From Escherichia phage JLBYU10, in sequence record OK272486.1: a stretch of DNA of 50,987 nt; one strand, written 5' to 3'. The notes beneath the pieces were generated by a model. It was not told where the DNA came from. It ran no database searches and saw nothing but the letters and a program-made list of their open reading frames with translations. Below, piece by piece: positions 1,551 to 19,696 of this stretch. Each line of letters starts with the position of its first letter. Positions within the stretch are counted from its first letter, which is position 1. A program made the translations under genes and the position numbers.

Positions 1551-3548
1551 ATGATTCCAAATATCGAAAAACAAATATCAGCGTTAGGCGAGGCAGTAAT
1601 AAAAAGCATCCAAGAGCGATTCACGGTTGGCAATATAGTGCCTTATCCTTATCAGTGCGTTGCGTATGCCGAGATCGCAAAGCGCATGAAAAACTATGAG
1701 CATCCTTTCTTTGTTAAGGCTTCTGTGTCGGCTGGCAAAACATTGATGTTTGCGATGGTTGCGGCGCAATGCCGAAAAATGGGATTGAAAATGATGGTCC
1801 TTGCTCGCCAGGCTGAAATTGTTGATCAGGATTCGGAAGAGATCAGCAATCTTGGAGTGCCAAACTCAATCTATTGCGCCGGACTGAAAACAAAAAGCGC
1901 ATACTTTCCGATCGTGGTCGGTTCTGAGGGCACTGTAGTAAACGGATTGTTTAAGTCGTTAGGTGATTATGTTCCGCACGTTATCGGTATTGATGAATGT
2001 CACCAGGTGGATTGGGAGGATCTCGCGGACGCGATAGAAAATAATGAATCTTACCAGCAGATGACCACTAAGAAGGATTTGCCTGTACTGATTGGAGAAG
2101 AACAGCAATTTGATTCCAATGGCGATCCAATGTTCGGAACAGGGCGCACACAGTACACCGTAATAATCATGGAAATGATGCGCAGGTGTCGCGAGGCATA
2201 CGGGCACGAATTGCGAATATTCGGTATGACTGGATCTGAGTTTCGCGGCGTGGTTCCAATACTGGTTGAAGATAAGAACAAAAAGGGATTCTGGCGTGAG
2301 CAGGTGACTAACATAGACACAAACTACTTAATCAAATTTGGTTCGGTAGTGCCAACAAATTTCGGCGACGTAGGCGACCTGGGGTATGACCTTTCAGAGT
2401 TCGAAGCCAGTAGCGAGGATGGCGTTTCAGACTTTGACGCTAAAACATTGCGCAAGATGGAAGAAAAGATCCATCAAGACGCAACAATGACACAGAAAAT
2501 CATGGCTAAAGTCCATGAGATATGCAAAGACAGGAACGGAGTTTTAGTTACATGCGCAGGGGAAAGGCACTGCAATGAGGCCGCCGCCGCACTGCCGCCA
2601 GGCGTTGAATACAGGATCATAACTGGCAAGACTGGAGATAATCAGCGTAAAGAGTGGCTGAGGGAGGCATACGAGGGAAAAGTAAAATACATCTTCCAGG
2701 TACAGGCGCTTACCACTGGCGTTAACGTTCCGTTTTGGGATACTTCGGTAATACTGAGAAAGATAGGATCTCTAACATTGCTTATCCAGCTTTTGGGGCG
2801 CGGCATGCGACTGCTTAAGCAATGGCACATTGAGCAGGGATTCAAGAAAAAAGATCATCTTGTATTGGATTTTGCAGGTACTATGGATGAGTTAGGTGAT
2901 TTGTATTTCGATCCAATCCTTGAGCAAGCGCAATTTCAAAAGAGATTTACAAACGGGAAAGAGCCTAAGACTTGCCCGATATGTGGAACGCTAAACAGCT
3001 TTTACGCTCGCCGATGTATGCAAGTAGACGATAACGGGAAGCGATGTGAGCATTTTTGGACTTACAGAATTTGCGAGGACCAGGTAGATCCGAGAACGAA
3101 AAAGATAATCAAGCGCGGCTGCGGAACAAAAAACGACGTAGTGGCGAGAGTATGCCGTTGTTGCGATATTTCTCTTATCGATCCTAACGAGAAGTTAAGC
3201 GGTAAGCACTACACCAAAAACGATTGGTGCAACGTTAAATCTTTCCGCGTTGATATGACGAAAAACCAGAAAGGAATTATTTTTTGCTATGAGCTTGAGG
3301 CCAACGGCGACACGTTCAAGGCATACGAAAGATTTTTCCCTGAGTCAGAAAGCAACATTTGCCGGACGATATGGAGAAAAATAGCATTGCAGCACATACC
3401 GGATCGCAAGATTGCTGGTATGGTGGCGAGCTATAGAAATGCTCGTAAAATAATGTCATACGCTCATCACATCATGCCGCCTGTACGCGTAACGCATCGC
3501 AAAAACGGCAAAGGTGAGGATAACATTGCAAAACGGGAGTTTGTTTAA
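1551..3548 (+). CDS. SF2 DNA helicase with C-terminal Cys-rich zinc-binding region
   Basis: Walker A-like SAGKT, motif II IDECH, helicase C-terminal-like region, multiple CxxC near C-terminus. Confidence 0.65.
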   Translation: MIPNIEKQISALGEAVIKSIQERFTVGNIVPYPYQCVAYAEIAKRMKNYEHPFFVKASVSAGKTLMFAMVAAQCRKMGLKMMVLARQAEIVDQDSEEISNLGVPNSIYCAGLKTKSAYFPIVVGSEGTVVNGLFKSLGDYVPHVIGIDECHQVDWEDLADAIENNESYQQMTTKKDLPVLIGEEQQFDSNGDPMFGTGRTQYTVIIMEMMRRCREAYGHELRIFGMTGSEFRGVVPILVEDKNKKGFWREQVTNIDTNYLIKFGSVVPTNFGDVGDLGYDLSEFEASSEDGVSDFDAKTLRKMEEKIHQDATMTQKIMAKVHEICKDRNGVLVTCAGERHCNEAAAALPPGVEYRIITGKTGDNQRKEWLREAYEGKVKYIFQVQALTTGVNVPFWDTSVILRKIGSLTLLIQLLGRGMRLLKQWHIEQGFKKKDHLVLDFAGTMDELGDLYFDPILEQAQFQKRFTNGKEPKTCPICGTLNSFYARRCMQVDDNGKRCEHFWTYRICEDQVDPRTKKIIKRGCGTKNDVVARVCRCCDISLIDPNEKLSGKHYTKNDWCNVKSFRVDMTKNQKGIIFCYELEANGDTFKAYERFFPESESNICRTIWRKIALQHIPDRKIAGMVASYRNARKIMSYAHHIMPPVRVTHRKNGKGEDNIAKREFV

Positions 3549-3967
3549 TGGCTATAACTGATAAAGGAGATTATCTTGAGTTTTACGAAAGAGATCCAAC
3601 CGACACGAGAAAGGAAGTTAATCACCAGATAGATAGCTTTCAGTGGTTGACTTATGCTCATCCTTATTTGCTAGCGTGGCATACGGTAAACGAGAATGAG
3701 AAGTCGAAAGTAACGGCGATGATTGATCAGCAGTCCGGCTTGGTTAAGGGGGTAAGCGATTTCATCATCCTGATTGGTTCAAACGGAAAATACCCCTTTG
3801 CAGCGATTGAGATCAAACGAGTGAATAAATCAGGCAAGGGGAAAGCATCACCAGTCAGCGATGAACAAAAGGCTTTTTTGCGTCGCGTTCGCAGCTTAGG
3901 AGGATTCGCTGCGGTCGCCTACGGATTTAATCAGTTTAAGTTAGCTATTGAATACATGCTTAAATAG
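3548..3967 (+). CDS. VRR-NUC domain nuclease
   Basis: ATGA start-stop overlap with helicase; SDFIIL...AIEIKR...DEQKAF...GG.AAVAYG pattern typical of VRR-NUC. Confidence 0.6.
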   Translation: MAITDKGDYLEFYERDPTDTRKEVNHQIDSFQWLTYAHPYLLAWHTVNENEKSKVTAMIDQQSGLVKGVSDFIILIGSNGKYPFAAIEIKRVNKSGKGKASPVSDEQKAFLRRVRSLGGFAAVAYGFNQFKLAIEYMLK

Positions 3968-4020: not shown

Positions 4021-4773
4021 ATGGCTTTTAATAGCGGAGAAATGAAAATGGCTAAAGATATTTTAGATAAAGACACCCATGACGCATTTGTTAGCTTTGA
4101 GCAGTTGGAGAGAGAAACGTTTATAGGAAATGCTCTTGCAACTGGAGGCCATTACCAGGCAGTAAAGCCAAATCAATATTATAAGGTAAGCGGCAACCGA
4201 TACGCTGGAAGCACTACGCCGGACGTTGTGCGCGATATGTGGAGCACACCTCAAGAGATCGTGGAGTGGATGGAATCAGAATTTGGCGAATACGATCTCG
4301 ACGCGGCAGCAAGCCAGGAAAACGCAGTTTGCGAGAAGTTCTATAGCAAGGAAACAAACTGCTTAAAGAGTTGGTGGGGTAGCAACAAGCACGTATGGCT
4401 TAACCCGCCGTACAGCAACCCAACTCCATTTATCAAGAAAGCAATTGAGCAAATGGAGCACAACAACCAAATTGATGTTTTGTTGCCATCCGACAACTCT
4501 ACAGCATGGTTTTATGAGGCGCAGCAAAACGCGGCTGAAATCATCTGGATCACTGGCGAGGTTTACGAAGAGGGGGGAGTGGAATATTCCCGCACCGGAA
4601 GAATCGCCTTTGTGTCTGGATTGACTGGCGAGCCTGTACAGGGCAACAATAAGGGAAGCGTGATTTTTGTCATGCGCAAACTTAAAGAAGGCGAGGAGCA
4701 GAAAACGCGATACGTTAAGATCAGCGATATTTGCCCCTCTGTAAACGAACGCCGCGCGCGCAAACGGAGCTAA
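4021..4773 (+). CDS. DNA N6-adenine methyltransferase (Dam-like, NPPY motif)
   Basis: WLNPPYSNP catalytic motif; alternative start at 4045 has better RBS. Confidence 0.65.
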   Translation: MAFNSGEMKMAKDILDKDTHDAFVSFEQLERETFIGNALATGGHYQAVKPNQYYKVSGNRYAGSTTPDVVRDMWSTPQEIVEWMESEFGEYDLDAAASQENAVCEKFYSKETNCLKSWWGSNKHVWLNPPYSNPTPFIKKAIEQMEHNNQIDVLLPSDNSTAWFYEAQQNAAEIIWITGEVYEEGGVEYSRTGRIAFVSGLTGEPVQGNNKGSVIFVMRKLKEGEEQKTRYVKISDICPSVNERRARKRS

Positions 4774-5104: not shown

Positions 5105-5290
5105 ATGAAAATGGTAGTATATAGCAAGAAAGCATTTGACCAGGCGCAACAAGCCGCACGCGAGGCGGTAAAAGGTGGAACGAAAAACAATATGCAGCTT
5201 GATTGGGGCGCTGCAATGATTCTACTTCGCGTTGCATATGGTCACTACCCATTAGAATTTGCGGAGGCATATTATAAGCATGAAGGTTGA
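5105..5290 (+). CDS. hypothetical protein
   Basis: ORF track; GAGGAAATGAAAATG RBS context. Confidence 0.4.
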   Translation: MKMVVYSKKAFDQAQQAAREAVKGGTKNNMQLDWGAAMILLRVAYGHYPLEFAEAYYKHEG

Positions 5291-5522
5291 ACAAGGTAGA
5301 GAGGCGGTATGGAATCACGCTAAAGAATGCGGAATAGCCGACGATATAAAGAAGATCGCGCAATACTTTGATATTGCAGATGTGAGCATAATTAGCGGCG
5401 ACAAGATGACTTTCCTCAAGGAAAGGCCGCGAAAAATGGTAAGAGTTCCAGCAGTTCCAACAAAAATTGATTTCAAAGAGGCAATGGCTAAAATCCGAGA
5501 GCCTCGCAAATATTATAAATGA
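5280..5522 (+). CDS. hypothetical protein
   Basis: ORF 5259..5522 trimmed to Met overlapping upstream stop. Confidence 0.35.
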   Translation: MKVEQGREAVWNHAKECGIADDIKKIAQYFDIADVSIISGDKMTFLKERPRKMVRVPAVPTKIDFKEAMAKIREPRKYYK

Positions 5523-5616
5523 GGATAGTTATCATGTGGCGCTTGTTTGTTCTACCGTTACCCGTTATCATCGCTGTTACAGTTATGTACCATATAGTGA
5601 TGAGATAGGTAGCAGA

Positions 5617-6732
5617 ATGAAAAATGTAAAAATTACAGATGAGCAATTCAAGATCGAACGGGCGGCGGGTAAGACATATAAACAGATCGCTCAAGAGTAC
5701 GGAATGAATGTTAGAAGCGTCGAGCGTCGCGCGGCGCGTCTTGCAAAGCAAGGCCAGGTATCCACCATTGGAGCGCCTGGTTTTGGCGTTCATGGTGAGT
5801 CAGTAATGACTGACAAAGAAGGCAACATAATCCTAAAGTGGACTAAAACCAGCAAGGATAAAGAGCAATTAGAAGCATTAATGCGCGCAGCAATGGAGGC
5901 ATTTAGCGAGGAAGTGCCGCGATTAGATCCGGTTCCATTACAGGAGCGCGACTATAACGAAACGCTTTCCTTGTATCCGATCTTTGACATGCACTTAGGC
6001 GCTATGGCCCATAAGCACGAATGCGGCGAAAATTGGGATACTGCCACGGCAGAGCGCGTTATGAATAACTTTATCGACTATGCTTTAATGTGCGCACCGG
6101 ATAGCGAAAAGGCTGTCATCCTGATTGGTGGCGATATGCTGCATAGCGACGGCCTGGAGGCGGTTACACCTGCAAGCGGTCACGTACTGGATCAAGATAG
6201 TCGATATGCAAAATTGGTTTACGTTGCCATCCGTGCAATGCGACGCGCAATCAATAAAATGTTGTTAAAGCATAAACATGTTGAAGTCCAGATCGTAGAG
6301 GGAAATCATGACCAATCAGGAATGATTTGGCTGCGCGCAGCAATGGCGGCAGCATATGAAAACGAGCCGCGCGTTTACGTTGATGTTTCACCTCGCGTTG
6401 TGCACCACACGCAATACGGAAAAACTTTCCTTGCGTACCATCACGGGCACACAGTGCGTAAACCGGAGACTTTGCTAATGATGTGCGCGTCAGATTGGCG
6501 GGAGGACTTCGGAAACTCAAAAACGATGTATGCGCACGTAGGGCACTGGCATCACCAGACCGTGACAGAAACGTCGCTTGGCATCGTTGAGGTGCATAGC
6601 ACCCTGGCGGCAAAAGACGCATACGCCGCGCGCGGTGGCTGGAGATCTCGACGCCGTGCGGCGGTTATCATTTACGACAAAGAGCATGGAGAGGTGGGGA
6701 GATTTGTTCACTATCCAGAAATGATGAATTGA
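5617..6732 (+). CDS. calcineurin-like metallophosphoesterase with N-terminal HTH
   Basis: GDMLHSD and VEGNHD phosphoesterase-type motifs; N-terminal YKQIAQEYGMNVRSVERRAARL HTH-like; start chosen inside ORF 5467..6732. Confidence 0.45.
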   Translation: MKNVKITDEQFKIERAAGKTYKQIAQEYGMNVRSVERRAARLAKQGQVSTIGAPGFGVHGESVMTDKEGNIILKWTKTSKDKEQLEALMRAAMEAFSEEVPRLDPVPLQERDYNETLSLYPIFDMHLGAMAHKHECGENWDTATAERVMNNFIDYALMCAPDSEKAVILIGGDMLHSDGLEAVTPASGHVLDQDSRYAKLVYVAIRAMRRAINKMLLKHKHVEVQIVEGNHDQSGMIWLRAAMAAAYENEPRVYVDVSPRVVHHTQYGKTFLAYHHGHTVRKPETLLMMCASDWREDFGNSKTMYAHVGHWHHQTVTETSLGIVEVHSTLAAKDAYAARGGWRSRRRAAVIIYDKEHGEVGRFVHYPEMMN

Positions 6733-6778
6733 TGAATTTTTATTTAAATCAATGACAAATTAAATCAAAAACTTGCAA

Positions 6779-6808
6779 AGGGGCGGCGTTTGTCGCCTCT
6801 TTTTTTTG
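6779..6808 (+). terminator. rho-independent terminator
   Basis: GC stem AGGGGCG/CGCCTCT followed by run of 8 T. Confidence 0.55.
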
Positions 6809-6878
6809 TTTAATTTTTTTACCATGTACGTTTATCATGCGGTCAATATATTGACTTTAATTAATATGGAGAATAAAA

Positions 6879-7588: not shown

Positions 7589-7977
7589 AGAAATTTTTAC
7601 TTACACCAATCGCAATGGCGGTGATCTTGTCTGGATGTTCAAGCGTTACGCCACTGACCGGATTAATCGGCAGTAAGCCGGAAATCACAGCGCAGGCTGG
7701 CGCGGAGAACGTGAAGCAGACAGTTGGCATTACAGCAAGGCAGGACGCCAGCACAAAACAGGAAACCACAATAAAGGAATCTGCGGTTGACAAGGTGGAC
7801 ACGTCCAGCAAGAAGGATTTCACAACATCAACCATTCAGGCCAATACCATCAAGGCAGACAAAATTCAGGTCGTGCAGGGTAATAACGGCAGATGGTACG
7901 ATCCAGTAATCATATGCGTGGTTGTGTTTCTTGTGCTGATTTGTCTTTACTGGATAGAAAAGAAAAAGGAGGCTTAA
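7585..7977 (+). CDS. unimolecular spanin (u-spanin)
   Basis: N-terminal lipobox ILSGCSS plus C-terminal transmembrane helix [16 protein letters not shown]; ATGA overlap with endolysin; architecture of T1 gp11. Confidence 0.6.
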
Positions 7978-7995
7978 CGCCTCCTTTATTTTTAT
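7960..7995. terminator. bidirectional rho-independent terminator between convergent genes
   Basis: AGGAGGC/GCCTCCT stem flanked by A-run and T-run. Confidence 0.5.
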
Positions 7996-17677: not shown

Positions 17678-18217
17678 ATGAAAAAATACACTTTCGAACT
17701 ATGGGGCAAGAAATACGAATTAATGACCAGCAAGCCGATTGTTGTGTGCGATCTCGACGGCACGCTATCGGACGGATCGCATCGTTTGCATTTGCTGCCA
17801 ACTGAAAACTTGCACCTTACGGAATCGTGGAGCGAATTTAACAGGGCCGCCGCCGGAGATTCACCGATTAAAAGCACGATCGCGGTTATTAACGGTTTAT
17901 GGGTGTCGGGATTTGCCATCGTCATCTTGACCGGACGCAGCGACGAGGTTCGCTATGAAACCTGCAAATGGTTGAATGAGAACGGCGTGAAGTTTGACGA
18001 AATCATCATGCGCCGCCAGGAGGACAACCGAAAGGATACTGTTATTAAAGAAGAAGCCTTGCGCGCTATTGGCCTGGACAACATTGTTTGCGCCTTTGAC
18101 GATTCGCCGAACGTGGTTAAGCACTTCCGCAGCTTGGGGATCACAACCTATCAGGTCACGGAATACGACAAGCCACACGCTCACCTGCAATCTCACGGCG
18201 TGGAGTGTTTAAAATGA
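17678..18217 (+). CDS. HAD-family phosphatase (polynucleotide 3'-phosphatase-like)
   Basis: DLDGTL motif I of HAD superfamily near N-terminus; further acidic motifs. Confidence 0.55.
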   Translation: MKKYTFELWGKKYELMTSKPIVVCDLDGTLSDGSHRLHLLPTENLHLTESWSEFNRAAAGDSPIKSTIAVINGLWVSGFAIVILTGRSDEVRYETCKWLNENGVKFDEIIMRRQEDNRKDTVIKEEALRAIGLDNIVCAFDDSPNVVKHFRSLGITTYQVTEYDKPHAHLQSHGVECLK

Positions 18218-19105: not shown

Positions 19106-19696
19106 ATGAAACGAGACATTATCATCCTTAATGGGCCGCCAGGTTGCGGGAAGGACACTATTGCAGCTTACCTAACGGGCCATCGTTACCCAGCGGTCAA
19201 GGCGTCATTCAAACAGCCGATGTTCGATATTGCTTTTTCTATGCTGGGCGTGTACCGATACGATGAATTTATGGACCTGTACAACGACCGAGAGCAAAAA
19301 GAAAAGCCTCAAGTTATCTTAGGCGGCAAGTCACCTCGACAATTCATGATCTGGATTAGTGAGGATGTAATGAAGCCAGTTTTTGGGGAGCAGTATTTCG
19401 GGCGTCGAATGGTTGAAGAGATTCACGAGATGTACCGAGATTTGGCGGTTGTGATCAGTGATGGCGGATTCCCCGAAGAAATCAAGCCGCTTGTTAAGGC
19501 AGGGCATGAAGTGCATATTTGCCGATTGCATCGCGACGGCTTCACGTTTGCTGGCGATTCGAGAGACTACATTGACCTGAGCGGTTATCACTATCGAATC
19601 CATCACTATGACTTCCACTTGCAGGACGGCAAGCCGGAACTGGCTGTAAACGAGATCGTCAATACTGTCAAATGGAAGCACACACAGATTAAATAG
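19106..19696 (+). CDS. P-loop nucleotide/polynucleotide kinase-like protein
   Basis: Walker A GPPGCGKDT at N-terminus, adenylate-kinase-like. Confidence 0.55.
   Translation: MKRDIIILNGPPGCGKDTIAAYLTGHRYPAVKASFKQPMFDIAFSMLGVYRYDEFMDLYNDREQKEKPQVILGGKSPRQFMIWISEDVMKPVFGEQYFGRRMVEEIHEMYRDLAVVISDGGFPEEIKPLVKAGHEVHICRLHRDGFTFAGDSRDYIDLSGYHYRIHHYDFHLQDGKPELAVNEIVNTVKWKHTQIK

What the first reader, a model, noticed from the sequence alone, without database searches (positions are those of the whole stretch)
5617..6732. Metallophosphoesterase fused to an N-terminal HTH
GDMLHSD and VEGNHD motifs indicate a calcineurin-like phosphoesterase, preceded by an HTH-like segment (YKQIAQEYGMNVRSVERRAARL). The alternatives are a DNA-targeted phosphoesterase/nuclease and a protein phosphatase. 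The start is uncertain, because the ORF extends upstream to 5467.
Basis: partly seen in the sequence, partly recalled or inferred. Interest (0 to 1): 0.35.

Follow-up and report, generated by a model that had tools for sequence, protein, structure and literature searches.

The report
Phage HTH-fused metallophosphoesterase, probable DNA nuclease
This gene of a T1-like coliphage encodes a DNA-binding-type helix-turn-helix domain fused to an intact two-metal phosphoesterase; the family is common in phages, already annotated but never tested, and most likely cuts DNA rather than dephosphorylating proteins.

Summary
Window 5617-6732 (+) encodes a 371-aa protein with an N-terminal three-helix HTH (aa 5-46), a conserved beta-hairpin plus helix (aa 55-100) and a metallophosphoesterase (MPE) core (aa 114-366). 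All five MPE motifs are invariant across relatives.

The start is settled: ATG 5617. The in-frame extension to 5467 is not coding for this protein. Relatives begin at the same Met, several have in-frame stops just upstream, and a conserved hydrophobic mini-ORF (5519/5534-5608) fills that space in another frame.

The window is a T1-like coliphage (Drexlerviridae). The protein is 100% identical to the annotated "putative phosphoesterase" of phage tunzivis and belongs to PHROG 704 ("DNA repair exonuclease"). The family occurs in about 2,000 of 50,697 phage records.

Fold and profile comparisons show a divergent MPE clade with weak affinity to DNA nucleases (Mre11, PdeM) and none to PPP protein phosphatases. 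In unrelated phage backbones the gene lies mostly in replication, recombination or nucleotide-metabolism modules.

Best reading: an HTH-tethered DNA nuclease/phosphodiesterase of phage DNA metabolism. No functional study of the family was found. Ordinary, modest interest.

The parts
5617..6732 (+). HTH-metallophosphoesterase gene, 371 aa, stop codon included
   Evidence: ORF. PHROG 704 at E=5e-149 over the full length. 100% identical to phage tunzivis 'putative phosphoesterase' (H66).
5629..5754 (+). N-terminal helix-turn-helix domain, aa 5-46 (helices 8-16, 21-27, 32-44)
   Evidence: Sub-threshold Pfam hits to Sigma70_r4_2, HTH_28 and HTH_23. Relatives hit Sigma70_r4_2 (12 of 53, best 1.5e-9), GerE, HTH_23 and others, and sigma70-ECF (10 of 53). 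AF2 shows three helices.
5779..5916 (+). Conserved middle module, aa 55-100: beta-hairpin (60-77, with G69 and W75 nearly invariant) plus a long helix (79-97)
   Evidence: Conservation. Secondary structure, at low-to-medium confidence.
5956..6714 (+). Metallophosphoesterase catalytic core, aa 114-366
   Evidence: AF2 model of aa 100-371 has pLDDT 87.6 and pTM 0.89. Foldseek matches are MPE-fold proteins (COG0622 phosphoesterase, Mre11, YfcE, Vps29, Rv0805, PolD DP1).
5986..5994 (+). MPE motif I, D124-M-H126 (within FDMHLG)
   Evidence: Invariant in A1, A2 and A3. Aligned to Mre11 D8/H10.
6130..6150 (+). MPE motif II, G172-D173-M-L-H176-S-D178
   Evidence: D173 and H176 are invariant. Aligned to Mre11 D49/H52.
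6301..6312 (+). MPE motif III, G229-N230-H231-D232
   Evidence: N230 and H231 are invariant. Aligned to Mre11 N84/H85.
6442..6450 (+). MPE motif IV, H276-G277-H278
   Evidence: H276 is invariant; G277 and H278 are nearly invariant.
6541..6552 (+). MPE motif V, G309-H310-W-H312
   Evidence: G309 and H312 are invariant; H310 is nearly invariant.
6157..6204 (+). Family-specific conserved loop between motifs II and III, aa 181-196 (AVTPASGHVLDQDSRY). T184 is invariant; L191, D192 and R196 are nearly invariant. Likely a substrate-binding element.
   Evidence: Conservation. Low pLDDT. The substrate-binding role is inference.
5604..5609 (+). Shine-Dalgarno-like GATAGG (AGG at 5607-5609), 7 nt before the ATG. 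It overlaps the mini-ORF stop codon.
   Evidence: Sequence. Relatives carry AAGGAG, AAGAGG or TAAGGA at the same place.
5519..5608 (+). Conserved hydrophobic mini-ORF (24 aa from ATG 5534, or 29 aa from ATG 5519, which overlaps the upstream stop as ATGA). It occupies the supposed upstream extension in a different frame.
   Evidence: Translation. A comparable hydrophobic peptide precedes the gene in 16 of 17 T1-like relatives.
6777..6812 (+). Intrinsic terminator (11-bp stem, 6 GC pairs, T-run). It ends the helicase / VRR-NUC / Dam / MPE transcription unit before the lysis cassette.
   Evidence: and the sequence.

Best explanation
The gene encodes a catalytically competent two-metal (Mn2+/Mg2+-type) metallophosphoesterase. 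An N-terminal helix-turn-helix domain brings it to DNA, and it most likely hydrolyses phosphodiester bonds in DNA, that is, it acts as a nuclease.

It is the last gene of the early/middle DNA-metabolism operon: SNF2-type helicase, VRR-NUC nuclease, Dam methylase, small ORFs, mini-ORF, then this gene, then a terminator. Translation starts at ATG 5617, probably coupled to the preceding mini-ORF.

Its likely job is either to process DNA ends or structures during phage replication and recombination, or to break down host DNA to feed or protect phage replication. Phage T5 A1 and mycobacteriophage Gp48, both MPE proteins, are linked to host DNA breakdown (direct in-vitro nuclease activity of A1 is not yet shown).

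Shown: the domain architecture, the intact active site, the start codon, the operon position, and the family's distribution and gene contexts. Inferred: DNA as the substrate, DNA binding by the HTH, and the biological role.
For: Active site:
- All five MPE motifs lie on invariant columns in 30 close and 53 distant relatives.
- The model of the core is confident (pLDDT 87.6), and its best PDB matches are MPE-fold proteins.

Affinity to DNA nucleases:
- M. jannaschii Mre11 bound to DNA is the first or second Foldseek hit.
- hhalign of the family profile against P. furiosus Mre11 gives probability 65% and E=6e-5. It aligns D124/H126 to D8/H10, D173/H176 to D49/H52 and N230/H231 to N84/H85.
- The only curated NCBIfam enzyme model touched by several members is the DNA endonuclease PdeM (9 of 53, best 1.6e-5).
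- PHROG 704 and PHROG 284 carry exonuclease labels.

HTH: the fusion is kept across the family.

Gene context in unrelated phage backbones:
- Between an O-like initiator and a DnaB helicase in lambdoid prophages.
- After PolA plus a D5 primase-helicase, or after PolA plus a 5'-3' exonuclease.
- After a PD-(D/E)XK exonuclease-like gene (DUF3799) and a Sak4-like ATPase (AAA_24).
- In this window, after helicase, VRR-NUC and Dam.

Precedents: T5 A1 is necessary and sufficient for host DNA degradation (bioRxiv 10.64898/2026.04.02.716235). Mycobacteriophage Gp48 is an MPE that disrupts host DNA (PMC12287305).
Against: - No biochemical or genetic data exist for any member; five literature searches found none.
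- Fold similarity is generic. TM-scores are 0.37-0.55, and YfcE/COG0622, Vps29, Rv0805, GpdQ and LpxH score about as well as Mre11.
- The Mre11 alignment covers only motifs I-III at 65% probability.
- There is no Mre11 capping domain and no Rad50/SbcC partner in the genome.
- No specific relationship to T5 A1 was found (28 aligned columns, probability 48%).
- Some contexts are not DNA metabolism: upstream of antiterminator Q, or between the lysis and terminase genes.
- In several lineages the next genes are a HAD phosphatase and a dNMP-kinase-like protein. That also fits a nucleotide or end-healing substrate.
Confidence: 0.5

Rival explanations
1. It is a nucleic-acid end-healing enzyme: a 3'-phosphatase or 2',3'-cyclic phosphodiesterase, like the MPE domain of bacterial Pnkp. 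It would work with the phage's HAD-type PNK phosphatase and P-loop kinase to repair cleaved tRNA or DNA ends, for example after attack by host anticodon nucleases.
For: - In several lineages the gene is followed directly by a HAD_PNKP phosphatase (PF25109, E=4e-18; PHROG 415 'polynucleotide kinase') and a P-loop kinase (PHROG 139).
- Homologues of both are present in this window at 17678-18217 and 19106-19696.
- From established knowledge, bacterial Pnkp uses an MPE domain for end healing.
Against: - The adjacency is seen in only 6-7 of the 53 loci surveyed, spread over three or four phage lineages. In this window the two genes lie more than 11 kb away.
- The kinase matches dNMP kinases rather than polynucleotide kinases.
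- No RNA ligase was seen in the genome annotation.
- The HTH fusion and the replication-module contexts are not explained by this reading.
Confidence: 0.13
2. It is a nucleotide-directed phosphodiesterase. It would degrade immune signalling nucleotides (cyclic oligonucleotides), or remodel dNTP/dNMP pools together with the HAD phosphatase and the dNMP kinase.
For: - Class III cyclic-nucleotide phosphodiesterases (Rv0805) and GpdQ are among the Foldseek hits.
- An MPE plus HAD pair can form a nucleotide-hydrolysing cascade in a defence system (bioRxiv 10.64898/2026.01.15.699771).
- Neighbours include a HAD phosphatase and a dNMP-kinase-like gene.
Against: - A conserved HTH fusion is not expected for a small-molecule hydrolase.
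- There is no PADLOC hit.
- No curated cyclic-nucleotide phosphodiesterase model was hit, whereas the DNA endonuclease PdeM was.
- The gene's neighbours are mostly replication and recombination genes.
Confidence: 0.1
3. It is a protein Ser/Thr/Tyr phosphatase of the lambda PPase (NinI) kind. It would be brought to DNA-bound targets by the HTH.
For: - It belongs to the MPE superfamily.
- In three lambdoid contigs (L073, L077, L080) the gene lies directly upstream of antiterminator Q. From memory, lambda ninI occupies that slot.
Against: - hhalign against lambda PPase (sequence verified against PDB 1G5B) gives probability 0.8%.
- The PPP signatures GDxHG, GDxVDRG and GNHE are replaced by FDMHLG, GGDMLHSD and EGNHD.
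- No entry labelled as a PPP-type protein phosphatase is in the top 50 Foldseek matches.
Confidence: 0.05
4. It is mainly a transcription or replication-initiation regulator. The HTH would recognise specific phage DNA sites, and the MPE domain would serve as a sensor or accessory. One version: a helicase-associated replication factor in the slot next to DnaB.
For: - The HTH resembles sigma-70 region 4 and LuxR-type domains.
- In 14 of 15 lambdoid loci surveyed the gene lies directly upstream of the DnaB-family helicase and downstream of the O-like initiator; in L024 two short minus-strand ORFs intervene.
- In the window it lies just before the late lysis cassette.
Against: - Invariant catalytic residues across 32-56% identity show that enzyme activity is under selection.
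- The HTH type varies between members, which argues against one fixed operator.
- No repeated binding sites were looked for or found.
Confidence: 0.08

Closest known systems
PHROG 704 ('DNA repair exonuclease'), annotated as 'putative phosphoesterase' in T1-like phages such as tunzivis, tonn, JK16 and SECphi27
   Same: Full-length match at E=5e-149. 100% identical to the tunzivis protein and 99.5% to JK16. Same position before the lysis cassette.
   Different: Nothing differs; it is a member. The family name is an annotation label, and no experiment was found. Some public entries use a wrong, longer start: JLBYU01 annotates it from 5535 of its record, and cluster P0001 is 398 aa.
Mre11 / SbcD / T4 gp47 nucleases
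   Same: MPE fold. Motifs I-III align, including the His that follows motif II (GGDMLH vs AGDLFH) and EGNHD. Mre11-DNA complexes are among the best Foldseek hits.
   Different: - No capping domain after the core; the chain ends at aa 371.
- No Rad50/SbcC-type partner in the genome.
- An N-terminal HTH and a beta-hairpin module instead.
- TM-scores of only about 0.33-0.46.
- A family-specific loop (VTPxSGHxLDxDxRY) between motifs II and III.
Phage T5 A1 (with A2 and dmp)
   Same: - A phage MPE-type protein; A1 is necessary and sufficient for host DNA degradation.
- A1 has a DNA-binding partner, A2.
- A small membrane protein is encoded directly upstream of A1, as the mini-ORF is here.
- A HAD phosphatase or PNK-type gene lies nearby.
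   Different: - The profile-profile match covers only 28 columns round motif III (probability 48%).
- The N-terminus shows no similarity to A2.
- A1 is 556 aa with a different N-terminal half.
- In T5 the DNA-binding function is a separate protein, not a fused domain.
Mycobacteriophage A10ZJ24 Gp48 (cluster A MPE)
   Same: An early phage MPE with five motifs and phosphodiesterase activity. It disrupts host DNA and acts as a counter-defence (PMC12287305).
   Different: No sequence comparison was done here. No HTH fusion was noted in the parts of the paper read. Different host and phage group.
PdeM (TIGR04123), the ligase-associated DNA-damage-response MPE endonuclease
   Same: It is the only curated NCBIfam enzyme model hit by several family members (9 of 53, best E=1.6e-5).
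   Different: Scores are far below the cut-off (16.5 vs 150 bits for this protein). No Lhr or ligase neighbours. PdeM has no HTH.
Lambda Ser/Thr protein phosphatase (NinI, PPP family)
   Same: A phage-encoded MPE-superfamily enzyme. Some relatives occupy the pre-Q slot in lambdoid phages.
   Different: No profile alignment (probability 0.8%). PPP signature motifs are absent. No HTH in lambda PPase.

Membership tests
Metallophosphoesterase (calcineurin-like) superfamily | Five motifs: DxH, GD, GNH[DE], H, GHxH | tested here: met
   D124-x-H126, G172-D173, G229-N230-H231-D232, H276 (HGH) and G309-H310-x-H312 are all invariant or nearly invariant in 30 and 53 relatives.
Metallophosphoesterase (calcineurin-like) superfamily | The two-sheet MPE fold | tested here: met
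   The AF2 core model has pLDDT 87.6. Foldseek gives 82 PDB matches at E<=0.001, and the 50 listed are dominated by MPE-fold entries.
Metallophosphoesterase (calcineurin-like) superfamily | Pfam PF00149 at or above its gathering score | tested here: not met
   16.8 bits against a cut-off of 21.5. 14 of 53 relatives match at E<=0.01. This is a sensitivity limit of the Pfam model for a divergent clade.
Metallophosphoesterase (calcineurin-like) superfamily | Metal-dependent phosphoester hydrolysis | not testable with these tools
   Needs an enzyme assay.
PHROG 704 | Full-length profile match | tested here: met
   E=5.4e-149; aa 5-370 against profile positions 3-389 of 390.
Mre11/SbcD nuclease family | Motifs I-III, with the His after motif II (Pfu H52) and GNHD | tested here: met
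   hhalign aligns FDMHLG to ADIHLG, GGDMLHS to AGDLFHS, and EGNHD to EGNHD (probability 65%, E=6e-5).
Mre11/SbcD nuclease family | A capping (DNA-specificity) domain C-terminal to the MPE core | tested here: not met
   The protein ends at aa 371, right after the last core strands.
Mre11/SbcD nuclease family | A Rad50/SbcC-type ATPase partner encoded alongside | tested here: not met
   No such gene appears in the annotation of the collinear genome JLBYU01 or among neighbours in 53 loci.
PPP-family protein phosphatase (lambda PPase / NinI) | Signatures GDxHG, GDxVDRG and GNHE, with profile similarity | tested here: not met
   The motifs are absent. hhalign probability is 0.8%. No PPP-type phosphatase in the Foldseek top 50.
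T5 A1 family | Profile-level homology over the MPE domain | tested here: inconclusive
   Only 28 columns round motif III align (probability 48%, E=1.9e-4). With T5 A1 alone as a single sequence: 20 columns, probability 21%.
PdeM (TIGR04123) | Score above the curated cut-off | tested here: not met
   16.5 bits against 150. 9 of 53 relatives hit weakly.
Helix-turn-helix DNA-binding domain (sigma-70 region 4 / LuxR-like) | A three-helix HTH recognisable by profile and structure | tested here: met
   Sub-threshold here (Sigma70_r4_2, 18.3 vs 25.7 bits). Relatives reach E=1.5e-9 (Sigma70_r4_2) and 2.4e-8 (GerE). AF2 helices at 8-16, 21-27 and 32-44.
Helix-turn-helix DNA-binding domain (sigma-70 region 4 / LuxR-like) | DNA binding | not testable with these tools
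   Needs EMSA or ChIP.
Known anti-phage defence proteins (PADLOC) | Any profile match | tested here: not met
   0 families at E<=0.1.

The most novel reading that the evidence does not exclude
The HTH-MPE family is the single-chain counterpart of T5 A2 plus A1 in T1-like and many other siphophages. In this reading it is a DNA-tethered nuclease that dismantles host DNA, feeding the phage's dNMP kinase and silencing host defences. It might correspond to the unmapped T1 host-DNA-degradation function; that link is from memory and could not be verified. In lambdoid prophages it would instead be a so-far unrecognised nuclease component of the replication module, working next to DnaB. The conserved small membrane peptide encoded just upstream could be its partner or regulator.
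Probability: 0.15. Interest if true: 0.55.

Novelty: new member of a known kind. Interest (0 to 1): 0.3.

Why it matters
The family is large: about 4% of sequenced phage genomes and 4,616 clusters at 50% identity. It is conserved in model T1-like phages used in defence-system studies, such as SECphi27 (its use in such studies is from memory), yet no experiment on it was found. Phage MPE proteins have recently been tied to host-DNA destruction and counter-defence (T5 A1, mycobacteriophage Gp48).

If this HTH-fused clade does the same, or proves to be a replication-module nuclease, it would fill a gap in T1-group biology and give a handle on how these phages treat host DNA.

On the practical side, this analysis fixes the start codon, which is mis-set in many database entries. 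It also reveals an apparently unannotated conserved mini-gene.

Tried and rejected
- **PDB sequence searches.** The single protein and the family profile found nothing beyond chance HTH hits.
- **First full-length AF2 model.** It used a shallow alignment (pLDDT 74) and gave only generic MPE matches. The deeper-alignment core model (pLDDT 87.6) did not sharpen the subfamily either.
- **T5 A1+A2 in one chain.** Specific homology to A1 and to A2 was not supported. It is kept only as a functional analogy.
- **Lambda PPase-like protein phosphatase.** Rejected on motifs and hhalign.
- **Defence-system relative.** No PADLOC hit.
- **The search for related loci with the 53-sequence alignment.** It failed because no stretch was conserved enough. 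It was redone with 10 sequences.
- **Literature.** Searches for any functional work on the T1-group phosphoesterase and for T1 host-DNA degradation (one search was malformed) found nothing usable. My recollection of a T1 'gene 2.5' host-degradation function could not be checked and is not used as evidence.
- **Longer starts (TTG 5467, GTG 5536).** Rejected by comparative evidence.
- **PNK-phosphatase/kinase linkage.** Real in some lineages, but loose; in this window those genes lie more than 11 kb away.
- **Role in lysis.** Considered because of the neighbouring lysis cassette and the LpxH fold hits. Set aside because a strong terminator separates the two units and the adjacency is not kept in other lineages.
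Full report
**What is there**

The window is essentially a whole T1-like coliphage genome (Drexlerviridae, Tempevirinae, Warwickvirus). The 2.6-kb region round the finding is 99% identical to phages JLBYU01, tonn, SECphi27 and JK16. The JLBYU01 record is collinear with the window.

On the + strand, an ORF runs from TTG 5467 to the stop at 6730-6732 (421 aa). An internal ATG at 5617 gives 371 aa.
- YKQIAQEYGMNVRSVERRAARL is aa 21-42.
- GDMLHSD is aa 172-178.
- VEGNHD is aa 227-232.

**Start codon**

Four lines of evidence place the start at ATG 5617.
- In alignments of 30 close relatives (60-86% identity) and 10 distant ones (36-56%), the N-termini coincide with this Met, followed by the conserved K-I-T-D-E-Q.
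- In five T1-like relatives (L005, L006, L008, L011, L012) the longest possible ORF is only 371-373 aa. An in-frame stop therefore lies just upstream of the ATG.
- A Shine-Dalgarno sequence (AAGGAG, AAGAGG or TAAGGA; GATAGG in the window) is conserved 7-9 nt upstream of the ATG, while the DNA further upstream diverges.
- The space between the previous gene (stop at 5520-5522) and the ATG holds a small ORF in a different frame. It reads MWRLFVLPLPVIIAVTVMYHIVMR from 5534, or starts at ATG 5519, which overlaps the upstream stop as ATGA. A comparable 22-29-aa hydrophobic peptide stands at the same place in 16 of 17 T1-like relatives, although the nucleotides differ.

The extension to 5467 is therefore an accident of reading frame. 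The GTG start used in some public records is wrong; JLBYU01 annotates the gene from 5535 of its record, and the 398-aa cluster P0001 has 193 member sequences.

**Domains**

Pfam alone is marginal for this protein: Sigma70_r4_2 at E=0.0018, HTH_28 at 0.0064 and Metallophos at 0.0098, all below their gathering scores. The family context removes the doubt.
- PHROG 704 ('DNA repair exonuclease') matches over the full length at E=5e-149.
- A scan of 1.84 billion cluster representatives finds 4,616 relatives at E<=1e-3 and 1,054 at E<=1e-30, mostly 370-420 aa.
- In 53 representatives of 32-56% identity, the invariant residues are D124, H126, D173, H176, T184, N230, H231, H276, G299, G309 and H312. 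H278, H310, D178 and D232 are nearly invariant.

These are the metal and phosphate ligands of the five canonical MPE motifs: DxH, GD, GNHD, H and GHxH.

Among the same 53 proteins, 14 hit Pfam Metallophos and 9 hit Metallophos_2. The N-termini hit a range of HTH families: Sigma70_r4_2 in 12 (best 1.5e-9), GerE in 5 (2.4e-8), plus HTH_23, HTH_28, HTH_1, MarR and others. NCBIfam sigma70-ECF is hit by 10. The HTH-MPE fusion is thus a property of the family, not of this one gene.

AlphaFold on the full length (30-sequence alignment, pLDDT 74) gives:
- three helices at aa 8-16, 21-27 and 32-44;
- a beta-hairpin at 60-77;
- a long helix at 79-97;
- the MPE core from 114.

A second model of aa 100-371 with a deeper alignment is confident (pLDDT 87.6, pTM 0.89).

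**Which kind of metallophosphoesterase**

Foldseek against PDB gives only superfamily-level similarity (E about 1e-7, TM 0.37-0.55). No entry labelled as a PPP-type protein phosphatase appears in either top 50.

I checked them against PDB and they were essentially identical to 3DSC/1II7 and 1G5B.
- hhalign of the family profile against Mre11 gives probability 65% and E=6e-5 over 99 columns. It pairs FDMHLG with ADIHLG, GGDMLHS with AGDLFHS (including the His after motif II) and EGNHD with EGNHD.
- Against lambda PPase the probability is 0.8%.
- Among curated NCBIfam models, the only enzyme family touched by several members is the DNA endonuclease PdeM (9 of 53, best 1.6e-5), far below its cut-off.
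- PADLOC finds nothing.

So this is a divergent MPE clade. It leans towards the DNA-nuclease branches and away from the protein phosphatases. It is not a member of the Mre11/SbcD family proper: it has no capping domain, and the genome encodes no Rad50/SbcC-like partner. A family-specific, highly conserved loop (AVTPASGHVLDQDSRY, aa 181-196) between motifs II and III is predicted with low confidence. It probably shapes the substrate site; that is inference.

**Context**

In the window the gene ends a + strand unit:
- SNF2-type helicase (1551-3548);
- VRR-NUC nuclease (3548-3967);
- Dam methylase (4021-4773);
- three small ORFs of unknown function (PHROGs 2676, 2180 and 2817);
- the mini-ORF;
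- the HTH-MPE gene.

A strong intrinsic terminator at 6777-6812 follows. After it come the holin (6879), endolysin (7094) and spanin (7585).

I surveyed 53 viral contigs carrying homologues of 42-99% identity, plus four genome or metagenome contigs from exact-protein look-ups.
- T1-like phages keep the arrangement above.
- In lambdoid prophages (64-67% identity) the gene lies between an O-like replication initiator and a DnaB-family helicase. A variable T5orf172/DUF4379 gene is often inserted just before it.
- In other backbones it follows PolA plus a D5-type primase-helicase (L071), or PolA plus a 5'-3' exonuclease in a phage with a T7-type RNA polymerase (L079, L081).
- In L087 it follows a PD-(D/E)XK exonuclease-like gene (DUF3799) and a Sak4-like ATPase (AAA_24).
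- Less telling positions also occur: directly before antiterminator Q (L073, L077, L080), before the terminase (L064, L066), or between the lysis and terminase genes (L085).
- In Jersey-like Salmonella phages and a few others, the next genes are a HAD_PNKP-type phosphatase and a P-loop kinase of the dNMP-kinase family. Homologues of both exist in this window at 17678-18217 and 19106-19696.

By tblastn the family is present in 2,032 of 50,697 phage records. These include Escherichia, Klebsiella, Salmonella, Vibrio, Rhodobacter, Flavobacterium and Thermus phages.

**Mechanism**

The intact binuclear site and its strict conservation mean the protein is an enzyme. The conserved HTH, the nuclease-leaning similarities and the predominance of replication and recombination neighbours make DNA the most likely substrate.

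I therefore propose an HTH-tethered DNA nuclease/phosphodiesterase. It would act either on phage replication or recombination intermediates or on host DNA.

Two recent papers give precedents for phage MPE proteins linked to host DNA breakdown.
- T5 A1, a putative metallophosphatase, is necessary and sufficient for host chromosome degradation. It works alongside the DNA-binding protein A2 (bioRxiv 10.64898/2026.04.02.716235).
- Mycobacteriophage A10ZJ24 Gp48 is an early MPE with phosphodiesterase activity that disrupts host DNA (PMC12287305).

I tested whether the present family is specifically related to A1 or A2, and it is not. The profile-profile match to nine A1 homologues covers only 28 columns round motif III (probability 48%). 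There is no match to A2. The parallel is functional and organisational only: an MPE, a DNA-binding module, a small membrane protein directly upstream and a HAD or PNK gene nearby.

Rivals remain open because nothing has been measured:
- an end-healing phosphatase or cyclic phosphodiesterase working with the PNK-like genes;
- a nucleotide or signal-degrading phosphodiesterase;
- a regulator;
- least likely, a protein phosphatase.

**Novelty and verdict**

The gene is already annotated in public records as 'putative phosphoesterase', 'DNA repair exonuclease', 'metallophosphoesterase' or 'winged helix-turn-helix domain-containing protein'.

This analysis adds four things:
- the firm start codon;
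- evidence that the nuclease alternative is better supported than the protein-phosphatase one;
- the finding that the family is a distinct, large and uncharacterised MPE clade found mostly in DNA-metabolism modules;
- a conserved mini-ORF upstream.

Five literature searches found no functional study of the family. Interest is modest (0.3). It would rise if the protein proved to be the T1-group host-DNA-degrading nuclease or a new replication-module factor.

Noticed in passing
window 5519-5608 (+), with the conserved start at 5534: A conserved 24-29-aa hydrophobic mini-ORF (MWRLFVLPLPVIIAVTVMYHIVMR) lies between the upstream gene and the MPE gene. It is probably translationally coupled: ATGA overlap with the upstream stop, and its own stop overlaps the MPE Shine-Dalgarno sequence. 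A comparable peptide is present in 16 of 17 T1-like relatives. It is not annotated in JLBYU01. A different small TM-containing ORF precedes the gene in some Jersey-like phages, and T5 A1 is also preceded by a small membrane protein.
   Followed up: partly
window 5536 (JLBYU01 record 5535) and protein cluster P0001: Many public entries annotate this gene with a longer 398-aa product starting at a GTG inside the mini-ORF region. Comparative evidence shows this start is wrong.
   Followed up: yes
window 17678-18217 and 19106-19696 (+): These encode a HAD-type PNK-phosphatase-like protein (67% identical to the gene that directly follows the MPE in Klebsiella T1-like phages) and a dNMP-kinase-like P-loop protein (48% identical to the next gene there). 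The three genes form a cassette in Jersey-like phages but are dispersed in this genome.
   Followed up: partly
L013-L025 and L002 (lambdoid prophages), the gene directly upstream of the MPE homologue: A variable T5orf172/DUF4379 (GIY-YIG-like homing-endonuclease-type) gene of 171-375 aa, in three unrelated versions (clusters c33, c90, c67), is inserted between the O-like initiator and the MPE gene. This suggests a hotspot for mobile endonuclease insertion.
   Followed up: no
window 6777-6812 (+) and 7965-7987 (both strands): A strong intrinsic terminator stands between the MPE gene and the holin. A bidirectional terminator hairpin stands after the spanin gene, where + and - strand units converge.
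   Followed up: no
window 5259-5522 (+): This 87-aa ORF is annotated 'putative endonuclease' in JLBYU01. It matches only PHROG 2817 (unknown function), so the endonuclease label has no support here.
   Followed up: partly
phage collection hits, e.g. MG065688 'Campylobacter phage A110b': 20 to 59 records labelled Campylobacter phage carry T1-like or Enterobacteria-phage-like versions of this region (59% protein identity, 44-kb genomes). The labels look doubtful for the host given.
   Followed up: no
PHROGs 20703 and 20762; BFVD entries Q45PV2 (phage Jk06, 258 aa), A0A0N7CGC6 (Salmonella phage 36, 112 aa), F4YXL3 and F4YXL6 (RDJL Phi 1): In some phages the gene appears split into an N-terminal piece (HTH plus half of the MPE) and a C-terminal piece. 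These may be frameshifts, sequencing errors or real splits.
   Followed up: no
L093 (Vibrio phage D232, T5 A1 homologue locus): The A1 homologue is flanked by a 'DNA binding protein' upstream and a 'polynucleotide kinase' downstream. This mirrors the HTH / MPE / PNK-phosphatase order seen around the family studied here.
   Followed up: no
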